From: an uncultured delta proteobacterium
GTDB lineage: Bacteria > Myxococcota_A > Polyangia > Polyangiales > Polyangiaceae
DNA: 64,000 nucleotides
NCBI GenBank assembly: GCA_963716725.1
Contig: CAVQUB010000008.1
Coordinates: 192,001-256,000 of the forward strand
Direction of reading: 5' to 3'
A program made the position numbers and the translations under genes. Below, in pieces: positions 26,811-38,844 of this stretch (the first letter of the stretch is position 1; every line of letters begins with the position of its first letter). The notes beneath the pieces are model-generated. The model ran no database searches. It was not told where the DNA came from and saw only the letters and a list, made by a program, of their open reading frames with translations.

Positions 26811-26988
26811 CTAGAAAAAAACACACTTTCTGGCGGCGAATTTGCCGCGTTCGTCACGGTTTCGGAGCGTCGGGCTTGCCCAGACACCAGAGCCGGTTAG
26901 GGCCACACGATTCGTGAGCGCGAGCATGAGTAGCGCGGATCCCGGGGTGTGGCAAGCCAGCCCCCCGCTCCATGGTACCTTGGTCCTG

Positions 26989-28184
26989 GTGCGCCCAGCT
27001 CGTTTCGCCGCCGTTTTGGTCTGCGCCGCGATCGCGGGTGGCTCGGGCTGCAGCGAGCCCGCGCTCGAGGCGGACGAGTCGGCCGTGGTCTGCCCAGTCG
27101 ACGACCCGGACTGCGATCGCATCGACGAACCCTGCGTGATGGATGAAACGCCAGCGGCGGATCTGGAGCCGGGCTCGTCGCCGATGGGTCTTGGCGGGCC
27201 GCTGACGGGCGGCGGCAAGCACCAGATCTGGCCCAAGGGGCGCGTGCCCTACAAGGTCGGTTCGACCGTCAACAGCACGACCAAGAGCCGGCTTCTGTCG
27301 GCGATGAAAGAGTGGGAGACCAAGACCAAGAGCGTCGTGCGCTTCGAGGCGGCGACCAGCGCGGACAAGGCCCACGTGCTCGTCAGCGAGGGGAGCCCCC
27401 GCGTCGCCTTCGTGGGCTATCGCGCGGGCACGGTCTCGAACCTGTACTTACGCGATTCGGAGTACCTGACCGTGACGCGACACGAACTCGGGCACGTGCT
27501 GGGCCTCGAACACGAACACCGGCGCAAGGACCGCGCGAACCAGATTCAGGTCATTTCGAGCAACATCGTGAACACGTCGCTGTGCAAGTATCAATTTGCG
27601 CTCTGCACGGACTGCGCGCTGCTCGACAAGTACACGGTCAAGTCCGTGATGCACTACCGCTCGACGCGCGATCTCACGAGCTGCCGCGTCGGTGGCAAGG
27701 CGGTGCTCCTGACCAAGTCCGGAGCGCTGATCAACCACGAATGGCTGATCGCCACGGGCGACATCGAATCCATCTACGAGCTCTACGGCTCACCCGTCAC
27801 CGGCAGCGGTGGCAGCGGTGGCACCGGCGGCAGCAAGGACGCCGGCCTCACGGGTGGCACGGGTGGCACAGCGGACGCTGGGCGAGCGACGCGGCACCGG
27901 AAGGCAGCGCGTCGGGCGGCACTGCAGGAGTGGCCGGAGCCGCGGGTGCGGGAGCAGGCGCGGGCGATGACGGCATCGACGAACCTAGTTGGGCGGGCGC
28001 ATCTGCTTTGGATGGCGCGGCTGGCAGCGGGGCCGGCGGCGGTCAGAGCACCAGGCTCGTCGCCAACGACGAGGGCGGTTGCAGTTGTCGCGCGGTTCCC
28101 GAGCGATCTTCAGGTGGGTGGTGGTTGCTGGTACTGGGCGCAGCGATCGGGCTCTTGCGATCCGAGCGGCGCCGCCGCTGCTGA
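26989..28184 (+). CDS. Astacin (M12A) zinc metallopeptidase with MYXO-CTERM-like tail (frameshift near 27881)
   Basis: WPKGRVPY, HELGHVLGLEHEHRRKDR, SVMHY Met-turn; the other frame ends GGCSCR...hydrophobic...RRRR. Confidence 0.85.
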
Positions 28185-28185
28185 C

Positions 28186-29180
28186 TCACTCCGGCAGCGT
28201 GCCATCGACCTTGGGCACCGCCGCGTTCATGCGCTCGGCGAAGACCTCGGCGGGCTGAGCCACCGACAGATCGAGCTCGAAGTCCGGGCGCTCGGCGGGC
28301 GACAGCTTGATCACCAGCTCGTCGAGCTCGCGCCTGGACAGACCCAGGGCCTCGAGCGCGGGTCGTTCGAGCTTTTCGGCCTGGCCCGAGAGTCCGTCGG
28401 CGCTGGCGCTGACCAGCCTGCGCAGCGCGTCGAGCTCCATGCGGCTCATGCGCGTGCCGCACACGTCGTAGTCGATCCACGCCTCGTAGGAGTGGGGCGC
28501 GAGCTTCTTGAGCATGCCCGCCATCACGCGGCCGTACTCTTGAATTTCCCACTGCGCGTGGCTGTCGACGCGCAGCTTGAGGAAGTGTTGCAGGTTGTGC
28601 AGATCGATCTTCCAGTACCACTGGGTATAGGTCGAGAGCGGCAGGTCGATGCGCGCGAGCTCCCGCGCCATCTCTTGGTTGGTCATCCACTCGTAGGTCG
28701 CCTGCGAGAGGCTGCCGGATCTCGTTCCAGCGCGCGATGGCTTCGGCGTATTTGCTCGGCGGGCACGCTCTGGCCGCTGCGCCCCTGGTTGTTCTGCACG
28801 CTCTGCGTCTGAAGCTGCTCTTCGCTGGGCGTGTAGAACAGCATCGGCATCAGGGAATACCGCCCGCTGTATTCGTTCACGCTCGCCGTCCGGTGACGGA
28901 TCCACTGCCGCGCCACGAACATCGGCATGCAGCAGTGGAACTTCAGCTCGACCATCTCGGTCGGCGTGGTGTGCAAGTGACGCCGCAGGTAACGCAAGAG
29001 ACCTCGGGTGAGCTGGGCCTTGCGCGTGCCGTAGCCGTAGCTCACGCGCGCCGCGCGCTCGATGCACTCGTCGGTGCCCATGTAATCGACGAGGGACACG
29101 AAGCCGTGATCGAGCACCGGGAAGTAGAGCCCGAGGATCTCTTCGGCGCCGGGGGAGGTGGGGCGACGGGTGTCAGTCAT
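28186..29180 (-). CDS. thyX: FAD-dependent thymidylate synthase ThyX (two frameshifts near 28752 and 28711)
   Basis: AARVSY, FVARQWIRHRTASVNEYSGRY, ELARIDLPLSTYT, NLQHFLKLRVDSHAQWEI. Confidence 0.93.
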
Positions 29181-30325: not shown

Positions 30326-33300
30326 ATGTTCGCCCTCCGCCGCGCCCCGCTCTCAGCGTTTTTTGCGCTCTTGGCGGCGGCCTGCGCCCACTCAGGTAGC
30401 GCCGGCTCCGACGCTGCGGCGGGCAGGGGTTCTGTCGCACCGCCCCTCGGGGTCGTGACCCCGGCTCGCATCGTGGCGCTGCCAGACGCCTCGGCGTCCC
30501 TCGTCGAACACGATCCCGACGGTTCGACCCGGTTCATTTCCCGCGGCATGCGCGTGCTCGCTCAGCCGGATGGTTCCGTCGAGCGCAGTCGCCAGACCTT
30601 TCCCACTGGCAAGACCGTGAAGGCACTGCGGCTGCCCTCGAGACTCGGGGGCGGATTCCTGTTCTACGCGACCGGTGCGAGCTCGACGCACCTCTGGAAG
30701 TCGAGCAGCTGGACCGACACGCTCACACCATTCGCGAACGTGGACTTCGACGTCGAGCGCATCATCGACGGCTTCAACCGAATCTACTTGCAGGACCAGC
30801 GCTCGTTCGACGTTGTCGCGCTCGATCCGGAGAGCGGCGAGCCCTTGGACCTGGGCCCGCTTCCGCCATCGCCCGCGTACTCCAGCATGGCCTTCGCCGA
30901 TGCCTGGATGGCCGTGGTCGAGGTTCCCTTTCGCGGCGTGCTCGCCACCTTCGACGCGGGCGCCAGCTGGCGGCCCCTGGGCCTGTCACACAGCTACGGC
31001 GTTCACCTGGACCGCGGCGAGATAGCCATCAACACGGCCCAGGGGCGCTTCGTCCTCGACCCTTCGGGGCATCTGCGGCAGCGCGCGCAGAACAACGACG
31101 ACGACGCGACCTTCGTGGGTGCGGGTCGCCGCGGGCCGACCGCTGCGGGGACGGCCATCACACCCCCGGAACCGCCGCCCCCGCCCCCGGTGGGGCCCTT
31201 GGGCAAGCTGCCGCTGCGCGAGGCCATCCTGCACGGCATGCCGGACGGGCCGGGCTCGGCGGTGGTGGCGAAGGACGGCGTGCTCGCCCGCGTGCGGCTG
31301 AGCGACGGCAAGATCTTGGACCTGGACGAGCACGCGTTTCCGGCGGGCGCTCGCTGTCACGGTGTGCCACTGGGCGACGGCTTCGGCTTCGTATGCGGGC
31401 AAGAGCGCGGCGGCACGGTGGTCTACGCGTACAAGAAGCCGCTCGCCCTCGACCCCGTCATGCGTTTCGTCGAACCGCGCTTCGTCGCGCCAGCCGGCAA
31501 CGGCGCGCTGGTCGTGCGTGGACCGTGCAAAGGCAGGCAGGCGGAGGCCATCGGCGCCTACTGCATTCGCGCGCGCGACGGTCGGCAATCCGAGATGCGA
31601 GTGCGCGGTGATCTCGGGGTCGAGCGCCTGGTCGCGCTCTCGGACGGCGGGACCGCGGTGCTGGTTCCGCCACGGCTGGGCGCACCCGGAACGCTGACGA
31701 TCATCGCCGCCGACGGCGGCGCGAGGACCGTCAAGCTCAAGTTGCCCAAAGACGACGCGCAGACGGCGGCCCTGCTGAAGAAGGGGCTGTGGCTCGAGGG
31801 CTTCATCGAGCGAGATGCCGCCGGAGCGGACGACGTCCCCGAGAAGAAGGCCACGAAGAAGGGCGCGCCCGCGCCCAAGCGCGCTCCGAAATCCACCAAG
31901 CCCACCTGGAAGAAGCAGCTGGCCGGGTGGGTCGTGGCGGCGGGGCCCTTCGTCGGTGTGCGCCTCGATCTCGACGGCACCGTTCATGTCGGTCGCATCG
32001 AGAGCGACATCGATCGTGCGATGGTGTCGACGGATTTGGCGCTCGTGCTGCCGAGTCGAGGCGGCAGCGCGAGCGAGAGCATCGACGGCGGATTCACCTG
32101 GCGCGAGGTCGAGTTGCCCGCCGACGGCGCGGCCACCGTGGCGCGAGCGCGGACCGAACAGAGCGCGGAGCGCGGGTGTTCCCGCGTGGGCTGCGTCTCG
32201 GGCGCCTGGATGCGTGTGGGCTGGCGGGGCCGTACCGAGAGCAGCGACATCGAGGTGGTCGACGCGCCGAAGCACTCGCGCCTGCCGGCGACCCGCGGCG
32301 GGCGATGGAACCTCTCCTGCGCGGCCACCGGAGCGACGGCGGGTGCCCGAACGAAGGAGCCGAAGCCGCAAGAGCCCGACGAAGAGGTCGGCATGATCGG
32401 CACGCCCGGCAGGTTTGGACACCGTTGGGGTGCCGCCCCGCCGACGGCTTCGGTCGAACTCAAGAGCAGCGACTGGCAGCCCTTCAAGGGCGTCGCGGCG
32501 CCCGCCAAGAAACCCACGGAGCTTGGCTTCGACATGGGCACCGAGCACATGGGCGCTCAGGTACGGGCCTACGCCTGGGGAGCGCGCGGAGCCAGCTGGG
32601 ATCGCGTGGGCCATTTCGTCTTGCGCGCGCACGATCCCTTCACGCTGGAGCGAGGCGTGTGGTCCACGGCCACCGTTCGCGGGCCCTGGAGCGACGACAC
32701 GGCGGCCTCCCAGGTCTTCGGCCGCGACTACAACCAACCGAGTGCGTGGTTTCCCGTCATGGAGCCCTCGGGGCGCGCGGCTGCGATGCTGATCAACGCT
32801 CGGGGTACGACGGATCTGCTGCTGCTCGAGGAGGGCCGCGGCGTCGTCACGGTGCAAGATTCAGCGCGCTGGGGCCTGTATCAGCTGTCCGGCGCGGTAA
32901 AGGTCGGCAGTACCTGGTACCTCGGCTCGTACGTCGCGGGCAGCAACTTCCGCCTGTTCAAGGTCAACGCTGGTCGGGTCGAGCTGCTCCGCGACTACCC
33001 AATGACCGGCGGCTGGCGGCCCAACACCACGCTGGCCGTGAACTTGGTCCGCAACTCGCGCAGCGACGCCCTGGGCATTTGGGTCGAAGCAAAGCGCACG
33101 CGCGGCACCGGCACCGCTTGGTACGTCTACTCGCTCGATCCGGAGACCGGCGATCCGCTCGACATGCTCTCGATCGATCCGCAGGAGCTCTCGCGGCTGC
33201 CGGCGGCTTGCGTTCAAGGTGCCGACGGTTGGGTGTTGGTCGGTGAGCCACCCGTCGATCCCTACGTCGACTTCCTTCAGCATGCAGACGGCATCCGATC

Positions 33301-33499
33301 ACAAGCGGTGCGAGCGAAGATGATCGCGCGACCGCAAGGGCTCTGCGTAGAAGTACTGAGCGCTGAGGCCCAAGCCGATGTACCGGCGCGCATGCCTCGC
33401 GCCGACGGCGCCCTCGCGAGCGGTTCGGAGCCGATCCCGATGGTGCTCGAAGAGCGCGGTCGACTCGGTCGGCGTTGGGGTTTTCGCTGCGTGCGTTAG
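30326..33499 (+). CDS. Large (about 1057 aa) lipoprotein, probable multi-beta-propeller
   Basis: LAAAC lipobox at the probable start; Asp-box-like TFDAGASW and SIDGGFTW. The ORF-track N-terminus is an antisense shadow of asd. Confidence 0.7.
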   Translation: MFALRRAPLSAFFALLAAACAHSGSAGSDAAAGRGSVAPPLGVVTPARIVALPDASASLVEHDPDGSTRFISRGMRVLAQPDGSVERSRQTFPTGKTVKALRLPSRLGGGFLFYATGASSTHLWKSSSWTDTLTPFANVDFDVERIIDGFNRIYLQDQRSFDVVALDPESGEPLDLGPLPPSPAYSSMAFADAWMAVVEVPFRGVLATFDAGASWRPLGLSHSYGVHLDRGEIAINTAQGRFVLDPSGHLRQRAQNNDDDATFVGAGRRGPTAAGTAITPPEPPPPPPVGPLGKLPLREAILHGMPDGPGSAVVAKDGVLARVRLSDGKILDLDEHAFPAGARCHGVPLGDGFGFVCGQERGGTVVYAYKKPLALDPVMRFVEPRFVAPAGNGALVVRGPCKGRQAEAIGAYCIRARDGRQSEMRVRGDLGVERLVALSDGGTAVLVPPRLGAPGTLTIIAADGGARTVKLKLPKDDAQTAALLKKGLWLEGFIERDAAGADDVPEKKATKKGAPAPKRAPKSTKPTWKKQLAGWVVAAGPFVGVRLDLDGTVHVGRIESDIDRAMVSTDLALVLPSRGGSASESIDGGFTWREVELPADGAATVARARTEQSAERGCSRVGCVSGAWMRVGWRGRTESSDIEVVDAPKHSRLPATRGGRWNLSCAATGATAGARTKEPKPQEPDEEVGMIGTPGRFGHRWGAAPPTASVELKSSDWQPFKGVAAPAKKPTELGFDMGTEHMGAQVRAYAWGARGASWDRVGHFVLRAHDPFTLERGVWSTATVRGPWSDDTAASQVFGRDYNQPSAWFPVMEPSGRAAAMLINARGTTDLLLLEEGRGVVTVQDSARWGLYQLSGAVKVGSTWYLGSYVAGSNFRLFKVNAGRVELLRDYPMTGGWRPNTTLAVNLVRNSRSDALGIWVEAKRTRGTGTAWYVYSLDPETGDPLDMLSIDPQELSRLPAACVQGADGWVLVGEPPVDPYVDFLQHADGIRSQAVRAKMIARPQGLCVEVLSAEAQADVPARMPRADGALASGSEPIPMVLEERGRLGRRWGFRCVR

Positions 33500-33562: not shown

Positions 33563-33766
33563 ACCCACGACATTGATGAGCGCTTCCCAGCATTTGCAAT
33601 TTCTGTCGCAGACTGCTACCTGAATGTTCGTCCGCGTGGAGCGAGGCTGTCCCCCCCCCGGCCCCTTCACGCGGACTCTTTATCGAGAGGGGTGGAGGGG
33701 TGTGAAGCGGGCTCCGAACGGACAAGCGGCCCGAGGACCGCTAACCTCCTCATCTTGGAGGTAGCT

Positions 33767-36638
33767 TTGGCTCGTTCGTTCGTTCGCTTCTTGGTTCCGG
33801 CTGTCGCGCTCTCGGGGGCCGTGCTCGCGGCTAGCTGCACGGATGGTGAGGAAGGCACGACCGGCACGACGAAGCCGACCGTTCCGAAGCCGGCACCGGG
33901 TGAGATTCTGCGAGTGGCCTCCCACTCCGGAGTACGTCGCGCTTCAGGTGCAGCCTTCGTTCACTGTGCTCGCGCCGGGGCAGACGCGCGAGTTAGACCT
34001 GATCGTCGAGCCCGACGTGTGTGTGCCGACCAAGCTCACCTTCGAGAGCAGCGACCCCAGTGTGGTCGCGGCTCCTTCCCCGCAGCTGCTTTATTTCTCC
34101 AAGGCCAAAGCCCGGGTCCAGGTCATTGGCGGGGGCGTTGGGCAGGCCACGCTCACGGCGCACTTCCCGCGCGGAGACGGCACTGATGTCACCCTCGAGA
34201 TCCCCGTCGAGGTGATGACCACGGACATTCCCACGTGCAGCGGGAGTGGCGCCGGCAAGCTCGACGACGGCAAGACAGTGAAGGGCAGCGGCGGCCTCGC
34301 GGGAGCGAGCATCGGGCTCCAGGTCGGTGCGACTCAGCCCAACTCGGGCAGCACCCTCTGGTCGGACATCAAACCTTTCGACGTCACCATCGCTTGCGCC
34401 AAGGACCAACTCCCAGCCGGTTACACCGCGCTCGGCCCCGCCGTCAGTTTCGGCCCCGTCGGCACGCGGCTGCAGCGCGAGATCCCCTTCAGCGTCCCGA
34501 TGAACCCCGCGGTGATGCCCGACGCGGCGACGCTGCGGCACGTCACCGTCAGCTACACCGGTCCGCGCGCCAAGAAGCCTCGAGCCATCCCCATCGCGAA
34601 TCCGCGCATCGTGCGCACCGGCGCCGGCTACAGCCTCGAGTTCCTCGCGCCTTGGCTCGGCACCTATCAGGCGGTCGTGCAGACCGCGGGCGGCACCAAG
34701 AAGCGCACACGCCGGCTCACGCACCGCGCGCTGGTCGGGATCTCCATGGGCGGCGGCGGCACCGCGATGTTCGGCATGCGCAACCATGACCGCTTCGACG
34801 TGCTCGCGCCCCTCGGGGGTCCCGTCGACTGGACCTGGATGCTGGGTCACATCTATCGAAACCACCTCGGGGGCTGGTTGCCGAACGACGGGACGACGCC
34901 GCCGACGGAGCTCGCGCCGATGCCGACGGCGACGCTGCCCTACGAGCACCCGAGCACCTTCAACCAGTGGTGGTACGAGTACCCGAAGAACGGCAACGGC
35001 GGCAGCTTCCCCCGCGCCGAGTACGTGCAGATCTTCCGGGACCTCGCCCTGATGTTCGGAAATCCGAACAGCTACAATCCGGCCAAGGGCGCGGAGAACC
35101 TGCCCGCCGGCATCCCGCCGGACGACAAGTCGGTCGTGGGCGATCACCCCGGACGACAGTGCGCGGTCACGGTCGATCCGCTCGACGGCCCCGACAAAGA
35201 GAAGCAGGAAGAGCTCGACAAGAACTGCCCCATCGAACGATGCAGTCACGTCAAGACGCTGTCCGGCTACTACGACGACGAGTTCAACCCGAAGGGCACC
35301 TTTCCCGTCATCACGGTCTGCGACGGCTCCGCGCAAGACTCGGCACTCTCGCCCTACGCCAACACCTGGAAGCCCGAGAACAACAACAAGCCCCTCGAGC
35401 TGGCCCTGGCCGTCGACTACAACGGCAACGGTGTTCGCGACCTGAACGAGCCGCTCTTGCGCCAAGGCCACGAGGTCTACGACGACGTCGGCGAAGACGG
35501 CCTGCCGAGCACCAAAGAGCCCGGCTACGAAGCCGGCGTGAACGAAGATCCCGCCGGGGACGACTGGGAGCCGCAGTACAATCCGGCCGGCCTCGAGGGA
35601 AACTACCGCTGGGACACCGGCGAGCCCTTCAAGGACGACGGTCTGGACGGGGTGCCCAACACCAAGAGCAGCCCCTACGACTTTGGCGAGGGCAACGGCA
35701 AGTTCGACTACGCGCCCGGTTATCGCACCTTTCTCGAGCGCGACTCGCGCACCGTCATCGAGCAGCACGCCCTCGGCACCCACGCCAAGCCTCTCGACGA
35801 CGCTGCCCTCGCGCGCCTCGACTTGTGGACCGACGGCGGCACCCGCGACTTGTTCAACTTCGCGGTGGATGCTGCGGCGTTGACCGGCGCGTGGTCAGCT
35901 CGCGACCGCATCTCGCACTACTACATCGAGTCGCATCGCATCCCAGGACAGAACCCGAACGACCCCAAGGTCTTCTTCGGCAACCGCTTCGACTGGAGCT
36001 CCATCCCAGGCGGCGTGTTCTTGCGCTACGGCAAGATCGATCCTGCGCAGAAGGACATCGAAAACGGTTCGGGTCAGCACGTCGGGACCGTCGACGAGAT
36101 CGCGCGCCGCTTGCAGTCGGCGCTCTACTACATCGGTAGCCGCTGGCCCGACGCGCCGCGCAGTCACGACGAGGAGAGCCTGGTGGATCCCGCCGATGGA
36201 GCAGAGACCTGCGAGGTGGTCGGCGCATGTGACTGGGAGTTCACCGACTCCCGGGGCCGAAAGGGGCCGGTCAGCGTGAACCTGCCGCCGGGCTACGCGC
36301 ACAAAGATCTTCAGAACAAGCGCTACCCGGTCATCTTCTTGCTGCACGGCTACGGTCAGACGCCCGAAGACCTGAAGGCGGCGATCATCTTCCTCAAGAA
36401 CTGGATGAACTTCCCCACCGACTCCCACGCCACGCGCCTGCCCAAGGCCATCATGGTCTACGTGGATGGTCGCTGCCGGCCCGGTAAAGACGAGGCGGAG
36501 TGCATCCGCGGCACCTTCTACACCGACAGCGTGCGCGAGCACGGCCCCAAGACCGAGAGCTGGTTCCTCGAGCTGATGGACGCGGTCGACAAGAAGTACC
36601 GCACGCAGGGCCCGAGCGAGATCGATTGGGTGGAGTGA
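33767..36638 (+). CDS. Lipoprotein with circularly permuted esterase (alpha/beta-hydrolase) domain (frameshift near 33907)
   Basis: GGAGG RBS and TTG; LAASC lipobox; RALVGISMGGGG mid-protein; LPPGY...YPVIFLLHG...VDKKYRT at the extreme C-terminus. Confidence 0.8.
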
Positions 36639-36892
36639 TGTTGGTCCAGTGCCCAGACTGCCAGCGCCACGTGCGAGTCTCCGAGACGGAGTGCCCGTTC
36701 TGTGCGAATCCCAGCGGCGGCACCGGTCGACGACGTGCGCTCAAGGTGGTGCTCGCCGGCGCTGCCGGCGTCGCCGCCATGACCATCGGCATCGGCTGCG
36801 CCTACGGAATGCCGCCCGAGGATCCGGCCGATGCGGACGTGGACGCTGACGCCGGGATCGAGGACGCGCCCGACGACGCTCCAGGTCAATGA
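36638..36892 (+). CDS. 84-aa Zn-ribbon/TM peptide with AYG motif; putative splicease substrate
   Basis: ATG overlaps the upstream TGA. Order: CPDC..H...CPFC, RRR, hydrophobic helix, IGIGC-AYGMPP, acidic tail. Confidence 0.75.
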   Translation: MLVQCPDCQRHVRVSETECPFCANPSGGTGRRRALKVVLAGAAGVAAMTIGIGCAYGMPPEDPADADVDADAGIEDAPDDAPGQ

Positions 36893-38046
36893 GACGCGCC
36901 GCTGTCGGCGAAGCGCCGCGCCCCATCTACGTGGTGTGGGAGATCACCCTCGCCTGTGATCTCGCCTGCGGCCACTGCGGCTCGCGTGCGGGCAAGGCAA
37001 GGTCCGACGAGCTGTCCACCGCCGAGGCCCTCGACGTGGTGCGGCAGCTCGCCGAGCTCGGCACCGAGGAGATCACGCTGATCGGCGGCGAGGCTTATTT
37101 GCGGAAGGACTGGGCGACACTGGCCCGCGCCATCGTGGACGCCGGCATGCGCTGCGGCATGACCACCGCGGGTCGGGGCTTTGGCGCGCATCACGCGGCC
37201 GCCGCCCGAGACGCCGGCGTCTCGGCCATCAGCATCTCCCTCGACGGCCTGCGCGCGGCCCACGATCGGCAGCGCGTCTTCGGCAGCTTCGAGCGGGCCC
37301 TCGGCGCCATGCGCTTCATCCGCGCGGCGGGCCTCGGGCTCAACGCCAACACTCAGCTCAATCGGCTCAGCGTGCCAGATCTCGACGGCGTACTCGAGCT
37401 GCTGATCACCGAAGGCGCCCGCGGCTGGCAGCTGCAGATGACCGTGCCCATGGGGCGCGCGGTCGACAATCACGAATGGCTGCTCCAGCCCTGGGAGCTC
37501 CGCGAACTCTATCCGCGCCTCGCAGTTCTCGCCGAGCGCGGGCGAGCGGCCGGCGTCGCCTTCTGGCCCGCCAACAACATCGGATATTTCGGCCCCCACG
37601 AGAGCACGCTGCGCAACCGCGGTGCGCCCGGGGCGATGGTTTGGCACGGCTGCAACGCTGGCGTTTACGCCCTGGGCGTCGAGGCCGACGGCAGCATCAA
37701 GGGCTGCCCCTCGCTGCCGACGGATCACTACGTCGGAGGCAACGTGCGTGAGCGCTCGCTGCGCCAGATCTGGGACGACGCCTGCGAACTCCGCTTCATG
37801 CGCGACGAATCGCCGCGCGACCTCTGGGGTTTCTGCGCCAGCTGCTACTACGCAGAAGAGTGTCGCGGCGGCTGCACCTGGACCGCGCACACCTTCTTCG
37901 GCCGCGGGGGCAACAACCCCTATTGTCACCACCGCGCCCTCGAGCACGCGGCGCGCGGCTTGCGTGAGCGGCTCACGCCCGTGGCCGCCGCACCGGGGCT
38001 GCCCTTCGATCACGGTCGCTTCGAGATCGTGGTCGAGCCGGCTTGA
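36889..38046 (+). CDS. Radical SAM/SPASM peptide maturase, PlpX (splicease)-like
   Basis: VWEITLACDLACGHCGSRAG, LIGGEA, NTQLNRLS, WQLQMTVPMGRA, NNIGY, GIEADG-like GVEADGSIKGCPSLP, CRGGCTWTAH, GNNPYCHHRA, GLPFD.G. ATGA overlap with the peptide gene. Confidence 0.9.
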   Translation: MRRAAVGEAPRPIYVVWEITLACDLACGHCGSRAGKARSDELSTAEALDVVRQLAELGTEEITLIGGEAYLRKDWATLARAIVDAGMRCGMTTAGRGFGAHHAAAARDAGVSAISISLDGLRAAHDRQRVFGSFERALGAMRFIRAAGLGLNANTQLNRLSVPDLDGVLELLITEGARGWQLQMTVPMGRAVDNHEWLLQPWELRELYPRLAVLAERGRAAGVAFWPANNIGYFGPHESTLRNRGAPGAMVWHGCNAGVYALGVEADGSIKGCPSLPTDHYVGGNVRERSLRQIWDDACELRFMRDESPRDLWGFCASCYYAEECRGGCTWTAHTFFGRGGNNPYCHHRALEHAARGLRERLTPVAAAPGLPFDHGRFEIVVEPA

Positions 38047-38844
38047 TCAGAGCGCAGCGACGAGGGCCCGGATCACGGCCTCGGCGAAGACCGCGCGCGT
38101 CTCGGGCTCGTCCCACCGCCGGGCTTCGCGATCGTCCAGGGCGTTGTGAGTCTCGATGATCACCGAAGGGATCTTGGGTCTCCAGAGCACGAAGACGCGC
38201 TCCGTGGCCGCGCGACGATCCACGAACACGCCGCGCTGCACGTCGTCAGCCGCGTAGGTCGGCGCGTACTCGGCGCCGGCGTAGGCCAGGAACCCGGACT
38301 GCTCCAGCGATCGACCGAGGGCCCGCGCGATCCCGACCCGCGCACCTATCGCGCTCGGCTCACCGTGATCCGACCAGAGTACCGACAGCCCCGGCGCCGA
38401 CCGGCTCCGCGAGCAGCTGGTCCCCGGTTCGGGTTGCCAGAGCTCGGTCTTACCGCGCACGTCGGAGTGCAGGCTCAGGAATACGTCCGCGGGCCAGGCC
38501 TCGGCCTCACGGATGCGCTCTCCGTAGGGAACGAGCTGATCGTTCCGGCGCGTGAGCTTGACGTCGAAGTGGCCAGTTCGGCTGAGCGCGGTCGCCAGAT
38601 CTTCGGCCAGAGCCAGCGTGAAGCTCTGTTCATCGCGGCAGAAGGCGTTCTTGTTTCCGGTGTTGCCTGGCGCGCCGTGTCCCGGGTCGACAACGACGCG
38701 GCGGGTGCCGAAGTTCACCGGGATCGTCGCGGTCGCCGGGTGCAGCTTGGCGTCGGGCCAGACCTCGGGCTCGAGCGCGCGGCCCAACGCCCAGCTCGAC
38801 AGCGCGAGCCCCGCGACCAACCCGAGAACCGCCGCCTTCCGCAC
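38047..38844 (-). CDS. N-acetylmuramoyl-L-alanine amidase (Amidase_3)
   Basis: VVVDPGHG, E, LTR, FLSLHSD, SVIIETH zinc and catalytic motifs; signal peptide. Confidence 0.85.
   Translation of the reverse strand: MRKAAVLGLVAGLALSSWALGRALEPEVWPDAKLHPATATIPVNFGTRRVVVDPGHGAPGNTGNKNAFCRDEQSFTLALAEDLATALSRTGHFDVKLTRRNDQLVPYGERIREAEAWPADVFLSLHSDVRGKTELWQPEPGTSCSRSRSAPGLSVLWSDHGEPSAIGARVGIARALGRSLEQSGFLAYAGAEYAPTYAADDVQRGVFVDRRAATERVFVLWRPKIPSVIIETHNALDDREARRWDEPETRAVFAEAVIRALVAAL

What the first reader, a model, noticed from the sequence alone, without database searches (positions are those of the whole stretch)
33767..36638. Circularly permuted esterase in a large lipoprotein
Known: Esterase (PF00756/Fes/XynC-like) proteins read LPPGY...YPV.YLLHG...V..DG...ID..YRT, then RA..G.SMGG, then Asp and His. 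Seen: RALVGISMGGGG..RNHDRFD lies about a third of the way in. Candidate Asp (DGGTRD) and His (GQHVG) come after a long acidic insert (DYNGNG, DG.DG, possibly Ca-binding). LPPGY...YPVIFLLHG...ELMDAVDKKYRT forms the extreme C-terminus. The two halves of the fold are swapped exactly at the YRT/RA boundary.
Basis: partly seen in the sequence, partly recalled or inferred. Interest (0 to 1): 0.75.

Follow-up and report, generated by a model that had tools for sequence, protein, structure and literature searches.

The report
Circularly permuted esterase lipoprotein of Polyangiaceae
This myxobacterial gene encodes a cell-surface esterase whose two halves are joined in swapped order compared with ordinary esterases, a rearrangement already known from one other enzyme family, and the copy in this window also carries a one-base frameshift.

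Summary
The body ORF (33843-36638) matches Pfam PF00756 and solved CE1 feruloyl esterases in two out-of-order pieces. The C-terminal 140 aa match the canonical N-half (beta1-alphaB, oxyanion HG, YRT). The segment a third of the way in matches the nucleophile elbow. The two matches abut exactly (7xrt 144|144, 8z91 131|133, a canonical myxobacterial esterase 131|132). The order is the same in 305 of 306 module-covering homologues. Ser, Asp, His and HG are near-invariant. The strongest covariation in the module links the extreme C-terminal tail to the linker before the nucleophile strand, as expected for one permuted domain.

First, the lipoprotein signal (TTG 33767) is out of frame with the body: there is one extra base at 33906-33908, absent from a 99%-identical protein and from relatives. 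Second, this kind of permutation (beta1-4 moved to the C-terminus) is already known from type-2 PHB depolymerases.

My verdict is an undescribed, mainly Polyangia family. It is probably an independent permutation of a CE1/esterase-D-type domain with a ~300-aa acidic cap. It is a new variant of a known kind, of moderate interest.

The parts
33757..33761 (+). Shine-Dalgarno GGAGG, 5 nt upstream of the TTG start
   Evidence: Read directly from the sequence.
33767..33838 (+). Lipoprotein signal peptide, 24 codons from the TTG start, ending ...L-A-A-S-C (lipobox Cys at 33836-38). Reading frame A.
   Evidence: Translation. The first 47 aa are identical to those of the 99%-identical intact homologue P0004.
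33839..33907 (+). N-terminal linker of the mature protein (TDGEEG...PAPGEI), still in frame A
33906..33908 (+). Site of one extra base (+1 frameshift) that uncouples the signal peptide from the body
   Evidence: DNA alignment: the window has GAGATTCTGC where L001, L017 and L002 have GAGA-TCTGC. P0004 reads ...GEI-CEWPP across this site.
33909..34328 (+). Domain 1 (body residues 1-140), Ig-like (Big_2-like)
   Evidence: PF02368 is precomputed for homologues P0031 and P0046. There is a weak match to S-layer protein 4uid (E=0.16). NCBI names P0104 'Ig-like domain-containing'.
34329..34694 (+). Domain 2 (body 141-262), beta-rich, with no family match. Absent from the short forms of the family.
   Evidence: No Pfam hit. 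No similarity to the esterase halves (hhalign probability <1%). Architecture classes.
34695..34898 (+). First esterase segment, equivalent to canonical beta5, nucleophile elbow, alphaC and beta6. Ser301 is at 34743-34745.
   Evidence: Matches PF00756 profile 111-152, 7xrt 144-179 and canonical P0284 132-163 (hhalign 84.7%, E=6.6e-6). Ser is conserved in 75 of 76 sequences.
34701..34718 (+). Linker just before beta5 (module residues 11-16). It covaries with the C-terminal tail.
   Evidence: mfDCA couplings 15-650 (3.43), 13-652 (2.83), 13-650, 15-648, 16-649 and 11-652. After shuffling, the maximum was 0.85 and 0.94.
34899..35798 (+). ~300-aa insert at the lid position (between beta6 and beta7). 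Acidic (52 D+E against 25 K+R), with 4 Cys. Presumed cap domain.
   Evidence: No Pfam family. Composition. Strong internal couplings, and couplings to elements around the active site. The matching region of canonical P0284 is only 164-249.
35415..35450 (+). EF-hand-like loop D-Y-N-G-N-G-V-R-D-L-N-E (candidate Ca site)
   Evidence: D503 and R510 are invariant; Y504, N505, N507, G508, D511 and E514 are >=90% conserved in 115 sequences. That this is a Ca-binding pattern is recalled knowledge, not tested.
35469..35687 (+). Two copies of an acidic D-x-G-x-D-G-[LV]-P... repeat unit (35469-35537 and 35619-35687)
   Evidence: Self-hhalign 34%, E=4.4e-4. The same unit matches 12 times in the PorV-domain protein P0243.
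35799..36218 (+). Second esterase segment, equivalent to beta7-Asp ... His-alphaF. Asp669 is at 35847-49 and His746 at 36078-80.
   Evidence: D and H are each conserved in 76 of 76 sequences. The Asp block aligns to canonical 250-305 / 238-314 and shares the D-[GC]-G-T-R-D-x-F-N motif (hhalign 37.7% and 66%; weak 7xrt match). The His was placed by eye against the canonical D-G-H-x-G-V.
36219..36635 (+). Third esterase segment, equivalent to the canonical N-terminal half (beta1 to alphaB). Oxyanion His-Gly is at 36345-50 and Y-R-T at 36597-36605.
   Evidence: Matches PF00756 profile 5-113, 7xrt 27-144 (independent E=3.4e-16) and P0284 24-131 (98.3%, E about 2e-14). H is conserved in 72 of 76 and G in 76 of 76 sequences.
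36612..36635 (+). Extreme C-terminal tail after YRT. It covaries in an antiparallel ladder with the linker before beta5.
36636..36638 (+). Stop codon TGA. It overlaps by 1 nt the ATG of the next ORF.

Best explanation
The gene encodes a lipid-anchored, extracytoplasmic serine esterase. Its alpha/beta-hydrolase domain is a natural circular permutant of the PF00756 (esterase D / CE1 feruloyl-esterase) type.

Chain order:
1. Lipoprotein signal.
2. Two beta-rich stalk domains.
3. beta5 with the nucleophile Ser301, then alphaC and beta6.
4. A ~300-aa acidic, Cys-containing cap inserted at the usual lid site.
5. beta7 with Asp669, then His746 and alphaF.
6. A ~40-aa linker.
7. beta1-beta4 with the oxyanion His-Gly, then alphaB ending in YRT.

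The ancestral alphaB-to-beta5 connection is cut. In its place, the new C-terminal tail and the new lead-in to beta5 appear to pair as a small antiparallel clasp. The enzyme most likely hydrolyses ester bonds on a polymer outside the cell, by the ordinary Ser-His-Asp mechanism. The best guess for substrate is acyl or feruloyl groups on polysaccharide.

Shown here: the out-of-order homology and its exact breakpoint; conservation of the order and of the catalytic residues; purifying selection; covariation between the two halves.

Inferred, not shown: that the halves form one domain in 3D; the role of the cap; Ca binding; the substrate; that the permutation arose independently of the PHB-depolymerase one.

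In this window the signal peptide is frameshifted away from the body by one extra base. This is either an assembly error or a very recent inactivation.
For: Out-of-order homology and breakpoint
- Pfam.
- PDB: 1jjf; 8z91 at 131|133; 7xrt E=4.6e-24 at 144|144.
- Profile-profile against canonical 335-aa myxobacterial esterases: 98.3% for module 530-648 vs 24-131, 84.7% for 16-47 vs 132-163, and 37.7% for the Asp block. The junction is at 131|132 (the tool's own hhalign; pairwise BLASTP).

Same order in relatives
- 305 of 306 sequences (>=500 aa) that cover the module are collinear. The one exception is a duplicated acidic stretch.
- 176 species genomes encode a relative. The best 80 are all Polyangiaceae, Polyangia or Myxococcota by record title, apart from 14 records titled only 'delta proteobacterium', 'Deltaproteobacteria bacterium' or 'proteobacterium'.

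Catalytic residues in 76 divergent sequences
- Ser 75, Asp 76, His 76, oxyanion His 72, Gly 76.

Selection
- dN/dS is 0.12-0.21.

Covariation (306 sequences, Meff 222)
- The top long-range coupling of 64,336 pairs is module 15-650 (3.43, about 15 sd). It comes with a ladder: 13-652, 13-650, 15-648, 16-649, 11-652.
- Helix couplings alphaC-alphaB: 37-629, 41-636, 41-637, 38-633.
- 7 of the top 20 pairs link the nucleophile segment to the C-terminal segment, against about 3 expected.
- When the C-terminal block was dealt out at random (2 runs), the maximum was 0.85 and 0.94 with no pair above 1.0. Observed: 13 pairs above 1.0.
- Element-level couplings fit the sheet order: beta1-beta2 1.29, beta3-beta4 1.27, beta2-beta4 0.97, beta5-beta3 0.97, alphaA-alphaF 1.02.

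Cap
- Strong internal couplings, and couplings to the elbow, Asp loop, His loop and beta3.

Precedent
- This topology is known to fold as one domain: P. funiculosum PHB depolymerase (PMC3531081, passage read).

Lipoprotein
- 74 of 76 evaluable loci have an in-frame signal ending in Cys by my pattern. The other two also show ...SC by eye.
Against: - The single-domain fold is therefore not shown directly.
- The DCA is underpowered (Meff 222 for 364 columns). The shuffle control destroys relatedness as well as coupling, so phylogeny may inflate the scores. The top pair is largely R-E in one set of sequences and H-D in another.
- Some couplings do not fit the canonical sheet order (beta3-beta7 1.10, beta4-beta6 0.82).
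- The His is not aligned to canonical esterases by any program, and the Asp block aligns only weakly (37.7-66% probability).
- The Atlas's own model of the short homologue P0226 has only moderate confidence (pTM 0.71, pLDDT 0.62). It aligns to canonical esterases at TM 0.42-0.47.
- Nothing in the neighbourhood points to a substrate: astacin protease, DEAD helicase, amidase, proC, dnaJ.
- All NCBIfam hits fall far below their cut-offs.
- In this window the gene is not intact.
Confidence: 0.8

Rival explanations
1. The family is a divergent member of the already known permuted group, the type-2 catalytic domains of extracellular PHB/PHA depolymerases such as P. funiculosum PhaZ. On this reading the permutation is shared by descent and the enzyme is a polyester (PHB) depolymerase.
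For: - The topology is the same: triad first, oxyanion segment last, beta1-4 at the C-terminus (PMC3531081 and PMC2666664, passages read).
- There are weak sub-cut-off NCBIfam hits to the type-1 dPHAscl model, best P0200 at 29.8 bits against a cut-off of 150.
- The proteins are extracytoplasmic, as PHB depolymerases are.
Against: - The family profile finds canonical CE1 feruloyl esterases at E=1e-24 to 1e-12. 2d80 and 2d81 are not among the 60 matches shown, of 66 with E<=10; the six not shown have E>1.6.
- Both halves still match canonical-order esterases of the same phylum, and share a D-[GC]-G-T-R-D-x-F-N motif with them.
- The NCBIfam dPHAscl hits are to the canonical type-1 model and are themselves out of order.
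- No PHB substrate-binding domain was detected.
Confidence: 0.1
2. The two esterase-like segments do not assemble into one catalytic domain. The protein would then be a non-enzymatic surface protein that carries relics of an esterase.
For: - No 3D model could be obtained.
- About 470 residues separate the nucleophile segment from the C-terminal segment.
- Pfam scores for each piece alone fall below the cut-off (15.6 and 20.4 bits against 22).
Against: - Ser, Asp, His and HG are near-invariant in 76 sequences that go down to about 30% identity.
- dN/dS is 0.12-0.21.
- The strongest covariation links the two segments.
- Neither half is a viable alpha/beta-hydrolase on its own.
- Each protein has exactly one copy of each half, always in the same order.
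Confidence: 0.05
3. The swapped order is an assembly or gene-calling artefact of this window.
For: The window copy does contain one indel, so its assembly is not perfect.
Against: - The same order appears in 305 of 306 module-covering homologues.
- It appears in 80 of 80 fetched loci, including the complete genome of Minicystis rosea and isolates of Polyangium and Chondromyces.
- No homologue shows the canonical order.
Confidence: 0.01
4. On the state of this copy only: the +1 frameshift at 33906-33908 is a genuine recent mutation. It would leave a 140-codon frame-A product and a body with no export signal, which makes the gene a young pseudogene.
For: - The extra base is in the window sequence itself.
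- It does not lie in a long homopolymer (T to TT, or an added C).
- The neighbouring genes align to relatives as single unbroken matches.
Against: - The body differs from the intact P0004 at only 8 of 909 residues and has no stop codon. The 47 N-terminal residues are identical.
- P0004's cluster is seen on 7 contigs.
- Only 1 of 80 relatives (L016) shows any frame break.
- One isolated indel is just as well explained by a consensus error. Reads were not available.
Confidence: 0.4

Closest known systems
Penicillium funiculosum PHB depolymerase (PDB 2D80) and the 'type 2 catalytic domain' of extracellular short-chain PHA depolymerases (Comamonas, Delftia, Acidovorax TP4, Streptomyces exfoliatus)
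   Same: It is the same kind of circular permutation of the alpha/beta-hydrolase fold. Strands beta1-4, with the oxyanion element, follow the Ser-Asp-His part instead of preceding it. Both are secreted or extracytoplasmic, and both carry extra insertions around the active site (PMC3531081, PMC2666664, PMC13552848 and PMC11878206, passages read). The primary paper, Hisano 2006, is not held.
   Different: No sequence similarity is detectable with the family profile. The window family is clearly PF00756/CE1-like at sequence level in both halves. It has a ~300-aa acidic cap, a lipid anchor and, in the window's clade, two N-terminal beta domains. No PHB-binding domain was found.
CE1 feruloyl/acetyl-xylan esterases with solved structures (7XRT, C. 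thermocellum XynZ 1JJF, 8Z91, 7B5V, 5VOL, 6RZN/6RZO, 6MOT, 5CXU)
   Same: These are the closest sequence relatives in the PDB (E=4.6e-24 to about 1e-12). They share LPPGY, the YPV..LLHG oxyanion strand, YRT, the G-x-S-M-G-G elbow and a G-x-x-D acid motif. Several also have an N-terminal Ig-like or CBM48 domain.
   Different: They have the canonical order (N-half first), a short lid and no lipid anchor. The window protein matches them only as two to three out-of-order pieces.
Canonical 335-aa PF00756 esterases of Myxococcota (P0284 Pyxidicoccus caerfyrddinensis, P0291 Cystobacter fuscus, P0292 Melittangium boletus)
   Same: They come from the same phylum. hhalign gives 98.3% for the N-half and 84.7% for the elbow. 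They share the D-[GC]-G-T-R-D-x-F-N acid motif and a G-H-x-G His motif.
   Different: They have the canonical order and an 86-aa region where the window family has about 325 aa. Their oxyanion motif reads L-H/N-A rather than L-H-G.
Engineered circular permutants of Candida antarctica lipase B (cp283)
   Same: They show that an alpha/beta-hydrolase tolerates new termini and keeps or gains activity (PMC8540959, passage read).
   Different: They are artificial, belong to a different family and have a different breakpoint.

Membership tests
Pfam PF00756 'Putative esterase' (esterase D / CE1 type alpha/beta hydrolase) | HMM score at or above the gathering cut-off (22 bits) | tested here: met
   P0003 scores 28.6 bits, E=1.5e-6. 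The score is reached only as the sum of two out-of-order stretches. Each piece alone scores 15.6 and 20.4 bits. PF00756 is precomputed for 111 of the 120 listed homologues.
Pfam PF00756 'Putative esterase' (esterase D / CE1 type alpha/beta hydrolase) | Nucleophile elbow G-x-S-x-G and an oxyanion H-G after beta3 | tested here: met
   G-I-S-M-G is present, with Ser in 75 of 76 sequences. L-L-H-G is present, with H in 72 of 76 and G in 76 of 76.
Pfam PF00756 'Putative esterase' (esterase D / CE1 type alpha/beta hydrolase) | Catalytic Asp and His at the canonical structural positions | tested here: inconclusive
   Asp669 is conserved in 76 of 76 sequences and aligns to the canonical acid motif at only 37.7-66% hhalign probability. 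His746 is conserved in 76 of 76 but was placed by eye. No 3D model was available.
Pfam PF00756 'Putative esterase' (esterase D / CE1 type alpha/beta hydrolase) | Canonical linear order beta1 to beta8 | tested here: not met
   The order is beta5-beta8 and then beta1-beta4.
Circularly permuted alpha/beta hydrolases of the type-2 PHA depolymerase kind | Catalytic triad lies N-terminal to the oxyanion / beta1-4 segment | tested here: met
   Ser301, Asp669 and His746 precede HG835-836. The definition comes from PMC2666664 and PMC3531081.
Circularly permuted alpha/beta hydrolases of the type-2 PHA depolymerase kind | Sequence homology to known type-2 depolymerases (e.g. 2D80) | tested here: not met
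   The family profile against the PDB at E<=10 shows no 2d80 or 2d81 among the 60 matches shown of 66. No bacterial type-2 sequences were on hand to compare directly.
Circularly permuted alpha/beta hydrolases of the type-2 PHA depolymerase kind | PHB hydrolysis and a PHB substrate-binding domain | not testable with these tools
   This needs an enzyme assay. No binding-domain family was detected by Pfam.
CE1 feruloyl esterase | Release of ferulate or acetate from xylan-type substrates | not testable with these tools
   Only sequence proximity is shown. NCBIfam NF041944 scores 11.7 bits against a cut-off of 1200.
Bacterial lipoprotein | Signal peptide with a lipobox Cys, in frame with the mature protein | tested here: not met
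   The signal and ...LAASC are present at 33767-33838 but are out of frame with the body in this window. They are in frame in P0004 and in 74 of 76 evaluable loci by pattern; the other two also show ...SC by eye. A crude test on stored proteins gave 216 of 301. A stricter lipobox pattern gave only 57 of 120.

The most novel reading that the evidence does not exclude
This would be a second, independent natural origin of the 'beta1-4 to the C-terminus' circular permutation of the alpha/beta-hydrolase fold. It arose inside the PF00756/CE1 lineage of Myxococcota. It is recent enough that both halves still match canonical-order esterases of the same phylum at sequence level. It is held together by a co-evolving clasp between the new N-terminal lead-in and the new C-terminal tail. 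It is combined with a large Ca-binding-type cap built partly from an unnamed acidic repeat, which also occurs 12 times in a PorV-domain outer-membrane protein. If so, the alphaB/beta5 junction is a preferred, repeatedly used break point of this fold. The family would also give a natural matched pair, permuted versus canonical, for studying how permutation evolves.
Probability: 0.5. Interest if true: 0.55.

Novelty: new variant of a known kind. Interest (0 to 1): 0.45.

Why it matters
The alpha/beta-hydrolase fold is among the largest enzyme superfamilies. In the papers I could read, its one documented natural whole-half circular permutation is the PHB depolymerase case. That relationship is mostly structural: 28% similarity after correcting for the permutation, according to PMC13552848.

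This family is large. The window's protein has 962 clusters at 90% identity with E<=0.001. The family occurs in 176 species genomes. The permutation is visible directly in sequence, with an exact breakpoint, and canonical relatives exist in the same phylum.

That makes three questions testable:
- whether the alphaB/beta5 junction is a recurrent break point of the fold;
- how the new termini are stabilised;
- what a 300-aa cap does on a surface-anchored esterase of polymer-degrading myxobacteria.

There is also a practical point. These proteins are currently labelled 'hypothetical', 'Ig-like domain-containing' or 'S-formylglutathione hydrolase FrmB'. Domain callers see only half of the catalytic domain.

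Tried and rejected
No 3D model or permutation-aware structural alignment exists in this report.

2. Remnant of an ancestral N-half in front of the nucleophile segment (duplication-truncation model). hhalign of six blocks of the protein against each other gave every pair below 3% probability. Rejected.

3. Tandem relics, meaning a second nucleophile elbow after YRT. The second G-x-S-x-G in P0175 and P0185 is incidental. Rejected.

4. Minimal permuted forms without the cap. The 117-328-aa hits P0274-P0282, P0286, P0287 and P0227 are C-terminal fragments of the family.

5. A functional link to the downstream Zn-ribbon ORF and the radical-SAM/SPASM gene. Despite the overlapping stop and start codons, the pair is present in only 3 of 80 loci. 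Rejected as part of the system.

6. Identity of the conserved upstream neighbour. There was no Pfam, NCBIfam or PDB hit. A profile of 27 orthologues found only HCF136 at E=1.3. Atlas feature scores of 0.85-0.89 to BNR/Asp-box clusters are a lead only.

The plasmid tblastn found only canonical hydrolases matching residues ~450-610, with 0 of 63 records covering >=80%.

8. A Pfam scan of the whole alignment A3 was over the size limit and was not repeated.

9. The CIRPIN supplement, which might list this family, could not be read.

10. A literature search by PDB code returned only materials-science papers.

11. Six searches of the held library for a described permuted PF00756/CE1 esterase found none. 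Subscription journals are not covered.
Full report
**What is at the coordinates.** The window is 65-70% G+C. The finding sits on one long + strand ORF, 33843..36638, 931 aa (P0003). It opens a classical lipoprotein signal ending ...L-A-A-S-C, with the Cys at 33836-38. That signal is in a different reading frame from the long ORF.

A protein 99% identical to the body (P0004, 956 aa, its cluster seen on 7 contigs) reads straight from this signal into the body. Its first 47 residues are identical to the window's frame-A translation. The 909-residue body differs at only 8 positions. A DNA alignment with the three closest loci shows GAGATTCTGC in the window where they have GAGA-TCTGC. So the window carries one extra base within 33906-33908.

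Among 80 related loci, only one (L016) has the gene match in two frames. By my pattern, 74 of 76 evaluable loci have an in-frame signal ending in Cys. The other two also end ...SC by eye. The break in the window is therefore an exception. I cannot tell an assembly error from a very recent mutation.

**The observation.** All the quoted motifs are present in the stated order. Body residue numbers below are P0003 numbers.
- Nucleophile elbow: Ser301.
- D-G-G-T-R-D: Asp669.
- G-Q-H-V-G: His746.
- LPPGY...LLHG: His835-Gly836.
- YRT: residues 919-921, ten residues before the stop.

**Is the order really permuted?** Five independent comparisons say yes.
- Pfam PF00756 matches the whole protein at 28.6 bits (cut-off 22) as two stretches. 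Scanned as separate pieces, residues 805-922 match profile positions 5-113 and residues 288-330 match positions 111-152.
- Single-sequence phmmer against the PDB finds the XynZ feruloyl esterase 1jjf with chain 38-77 on residues 800-843 and chain 145-178 on residues 293-326.
- A profile of 115 close homologues (A1) puts 8z91 chain 27-131 on the C-terminal segment and chain 133-163 on the elbow.
- A profile of 65 sequences that includes distant members (A3) gives E=4.6e-24 to feruloyl esterase 7xrt. Chain 27-144 falls on the C-terminal segment (independent E=3.4e-16). Chain 144-179 falls on the elbow (1.2e-05). A weak third piece, chain 202-247, falls on the D-G-G-x-R-D region. All the best hits are CE1-type feruloyl esterases.
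- Canonical 335-aa PF00756 esterases of other Myxococcota were retrieved with the C-terminal region of a short family member. Against them, hhalign gives 98.3% probability for module 530-648 on residues 24-131, 84.7% for module 16-47 on residues 132-163, and 37.7% (66% for the block alone) for the Asp region on residues 250-305. The Asp region shares a D-[GC]-G-T-R-D-x-F-N motif (pairwise BLASTP).

The breakpoint is thus exact: 144|144, 131|133 and 131|132 in three references.

**Is it an artefact?** No.
- The word-indexed search found 962 clusters with E<=0.001. The 120 listed are 52-99% identical and mostly 890-1050 aa, and 111 of them carry PF00756.
- The exhaustive search of 50%-identity representatives found 403.
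- Of the stored proteins of >=500 aa, 306 cover the module from the elbow to YRT, and 305 are collinear with the window. The one exception has a duplicated acidic stretch, not a different order of halves.
- In one-genome-per-species contigs, 176 species encode a relative. The best 80 are all Polyangiaceae, Polyangia or Myxococcota by record title, apart from 14 records titled only 'delta proteobacterium', 'Deltaproteobacteria bacterium' or 'proteobacterium'. They include Polyangium isolates, Chondromyces apiculatus and the complete Minicystis rosea chromosome.

- Conservation. In 76 sequences going down to about 30% identity, Ser is kept in 75, Asp669 in 76, His746 in 76, the oxyanion His in 72 and its Gly in 76.
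- Selection. dN/dS against three relatives is 0.14-0.17, and 0.12-0.21 over all pairs.
- Covariation. I ran a mean-field DCA on 306 sequences (364 columns, effective number 222).
  - The strongest of 64,336 long-range couplings is module 15-650, score 3.43 (the sd of all scores is 0.225).
  - It is followed by 13-652, 13-650, 15-648, 16-649 and 11-652. This is an antiparallel ladder between the linker just before beta5 and the last residues of the protein.
  - A second set (37-629, 41-636, 41-637, 38-633, 24-643) links the helix after the nucleophile to the last helix before YRT.
  - Seven of the top 20 pairs join the two segments, against about three expected.
  - The contingency tables show real residue swaps (R-E, H-D, K-E), not gaps.
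  - With the C-terminal block dealt out at random, the best such coupling was 0.85 and 0.94 in two runs and none exceeded 1.0. Thirteen exceeded 1.0 in the real data.
  - This control removes relatedness too, so it is generous.
  - Element-level maxima mostly fit the canonical sheet (beta1-beta2, beta3-beta4, beta2-beta4, beta5-beta3, alphaA-alphaF). Two pairs do not fit (beta3-beta7, beta4-beta6).
- Atlas model. The ESM Atlas holds its own model of the short homologue P0226 (pTM 0.71, pLDDT 0.62). Sequential structure search aligns it to canonical PF00756 clusters over only 162-196 residues of 300-389, at TM 0.42-0.47, and only within its Ser-to-His part. That is what a permutation would cause, but it is weak evidence.

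**Anatomy** (window coordinates).
- Signal peptide: 33767-33838.
- Ig-like domain: 33909-34328.
- Second beta-rich domain: 34329-34694.
- Elbow segment: 34695-34898.
- Insert: 34899-35798.
- Asp/His segment: 35799-36218.
- Canonical N-half: 36219-36635.

The insert lies where canonical relatives have about 86 residues. It is also where most alpha/beta-hydrolases carry a lid (PMC11878206, passage read). It has no Pfam family. It is acidic (52 D+E against 25 K+R) and has 4 Cys. It contains an EF-hand-like loop with invariant or near-invariant D, N, N, G, D and E. It also holds two copies of a D-x-G-x-D-G-[LV]-P unit (self-hhalign 34%); that unit recurs 12 times in a PorV-domain protein.

A second DCA that included the insert gives strong couplings inside it. 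It also gives weaker couplings from it to the elbow, the Asp loop, the His loop and beta3. That fits a folded cap over the active site. Calcium binding is a guess from motifs.

**Family structure.** Shorter members (550-750 aa) consist of a lipoprotein signal followed, about 20-25 residues after the Cys, by the nucleophile strand. On a midpoint-rooted FastTree of the module, the 58 short forms fall mostly in two deep clades, and the 189 long forms (two N-terminal domains) are nested. The rooting is an assumption. All source-given organism names are Myxococcota or 'Deltaproteobacteria' MAGs. JGI's automatic names are 'S-formylglutathione hydrolase FrmB' or 'enterochelin esterase-like'. Some short forms have K/N/I-rich signals that look non-myxobacterial, but I could not obtain their origin.

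**Context.** A 1057-aa lipoprotein with no family (30326-33499) is adjacent to the esterase gene in 42 of 80 loci. It lies upstream on the same strand in the window's clade, and convergent in the Polyangium clade. The downstream Zn-ribbon ORF and radical-SAM/SPASM gene overlap the stop codons but accompany the esterase in only 3 of 80 loci. Other neighbours are housekeeping genes. Nothing identifies a substrate.

[quoted passage not shown] The PHA depolymerase database paper defines type-2 catalytic domains by the oxyanion hole lying C-terminal to the triad, and lists Comamonas, Delftia, Acidovorax, Streptomyces exfoliatus and P. funiculosum (PMC2666664). So the kind of permutation is known.

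The window family shows no detectable similarity to 2D80. It is clearly similar to canonical CE1 and esterase-D-type enzymes in both halves. I read that as an independent permutation at the same junction. This is an inference.

I looked for relics of a duplication-truncation route and found none. Six full-text searches found no description of a permuted PF00756/CE1 esterase. The supplement of the 2026 CIRPIN survey of permutations could not be read and might list it.

**Verdict.** It comes with two additions: the frameshift, and the existing precedent. The family is an undescribed, widespread Polyangia lineage of lipid-anchored, capped, circularly permuted esterases. It is a new variant of a known kind, of moderate interest (0.45). 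The window's own copy is not intact as assembled.

Noticed in passing
window 30326-33499 (+): A 1057-aa predicted lipoprotein (signal ...LLAAAC) with no Pfam, NCBIfam or PDB match. An orthologue profile reaches only HCF136 at E=1.3, and Atlas features hint at a BNR/Asp-box propeller (0.85-0.89). It is adjacent to the esterase gene in 42 of 80 related loci, in two different orientations, which suggests a functional link.
   Followed up: partly
window 36638-36889 (+): An 84-aa ORF whose ATG overlaps the esterase stop (TGATG). It has an N-terminal CxxC...CxxC zinc-ribbon, one hydrophobic helix and an acidic D/A/P-rich tail, and no family match. It may be a precursor or partner of the radical-SAM enzyme that follows.
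   Followed up: partly
window 36889-38046 (+): A radical SAM/SPASM protein with an ATGA overlap to the small ORF. It is closest to the nif11-class peptide maturase TIGR04103 (500 bits, cut-off 725) and the GDL-motif peptide maturase TIGR03913 (440 bits, cut-off 592). Together with the small ORF, it sits next to the esterase in only 3 of 80 loci (L001, L002, L017).
   Followed up: partly
window 35469-35687; protein P0243: An unnamed acidic repeat of about 45-50 aa (D-x-G-x-D-G-[ILV]-P ... E-P-G-Y ... D-P-x-G-D-D ... N-P-x-G-T-E). It occurs about twice in the esterase cap and matches 12 times in a 1111-aa protein with a PorV-like C-terminal domain. No Pfam family covers it.
   Followed up: partly
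L016:5001-7728: The orthologue in this MAG is also split between two reading frames (query 1-268 in frame 3, 220-909 in frame 1). The stored 665-aa protein P0050 is its downstream part. It is the only one of the 80 loci with a frame break.
   Followed up: no
proteins P0200, P0299, P0300, P0301: Short forms of the family (602-619 aa) have K/N/I-rich lipoprotein signals unlike those of high-GC myxobacteria. The family may extend beyond Myxococcota. Their source organisms could not be obtained.
   Followed up: no
window 26842-28812 (+) and 38047-38844 (-): An astacin-family metalloprotease (PF01400, E=8e-23) lies upstream, and an Amidase_3 N-acetylmuramoyl-L-alanine amidase (E=7e-21) lies downstream. 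Both are likely secreted lytic enzymes, in keeping with a predatory or polymer-degrading myxobacterium.
   Followed up: no
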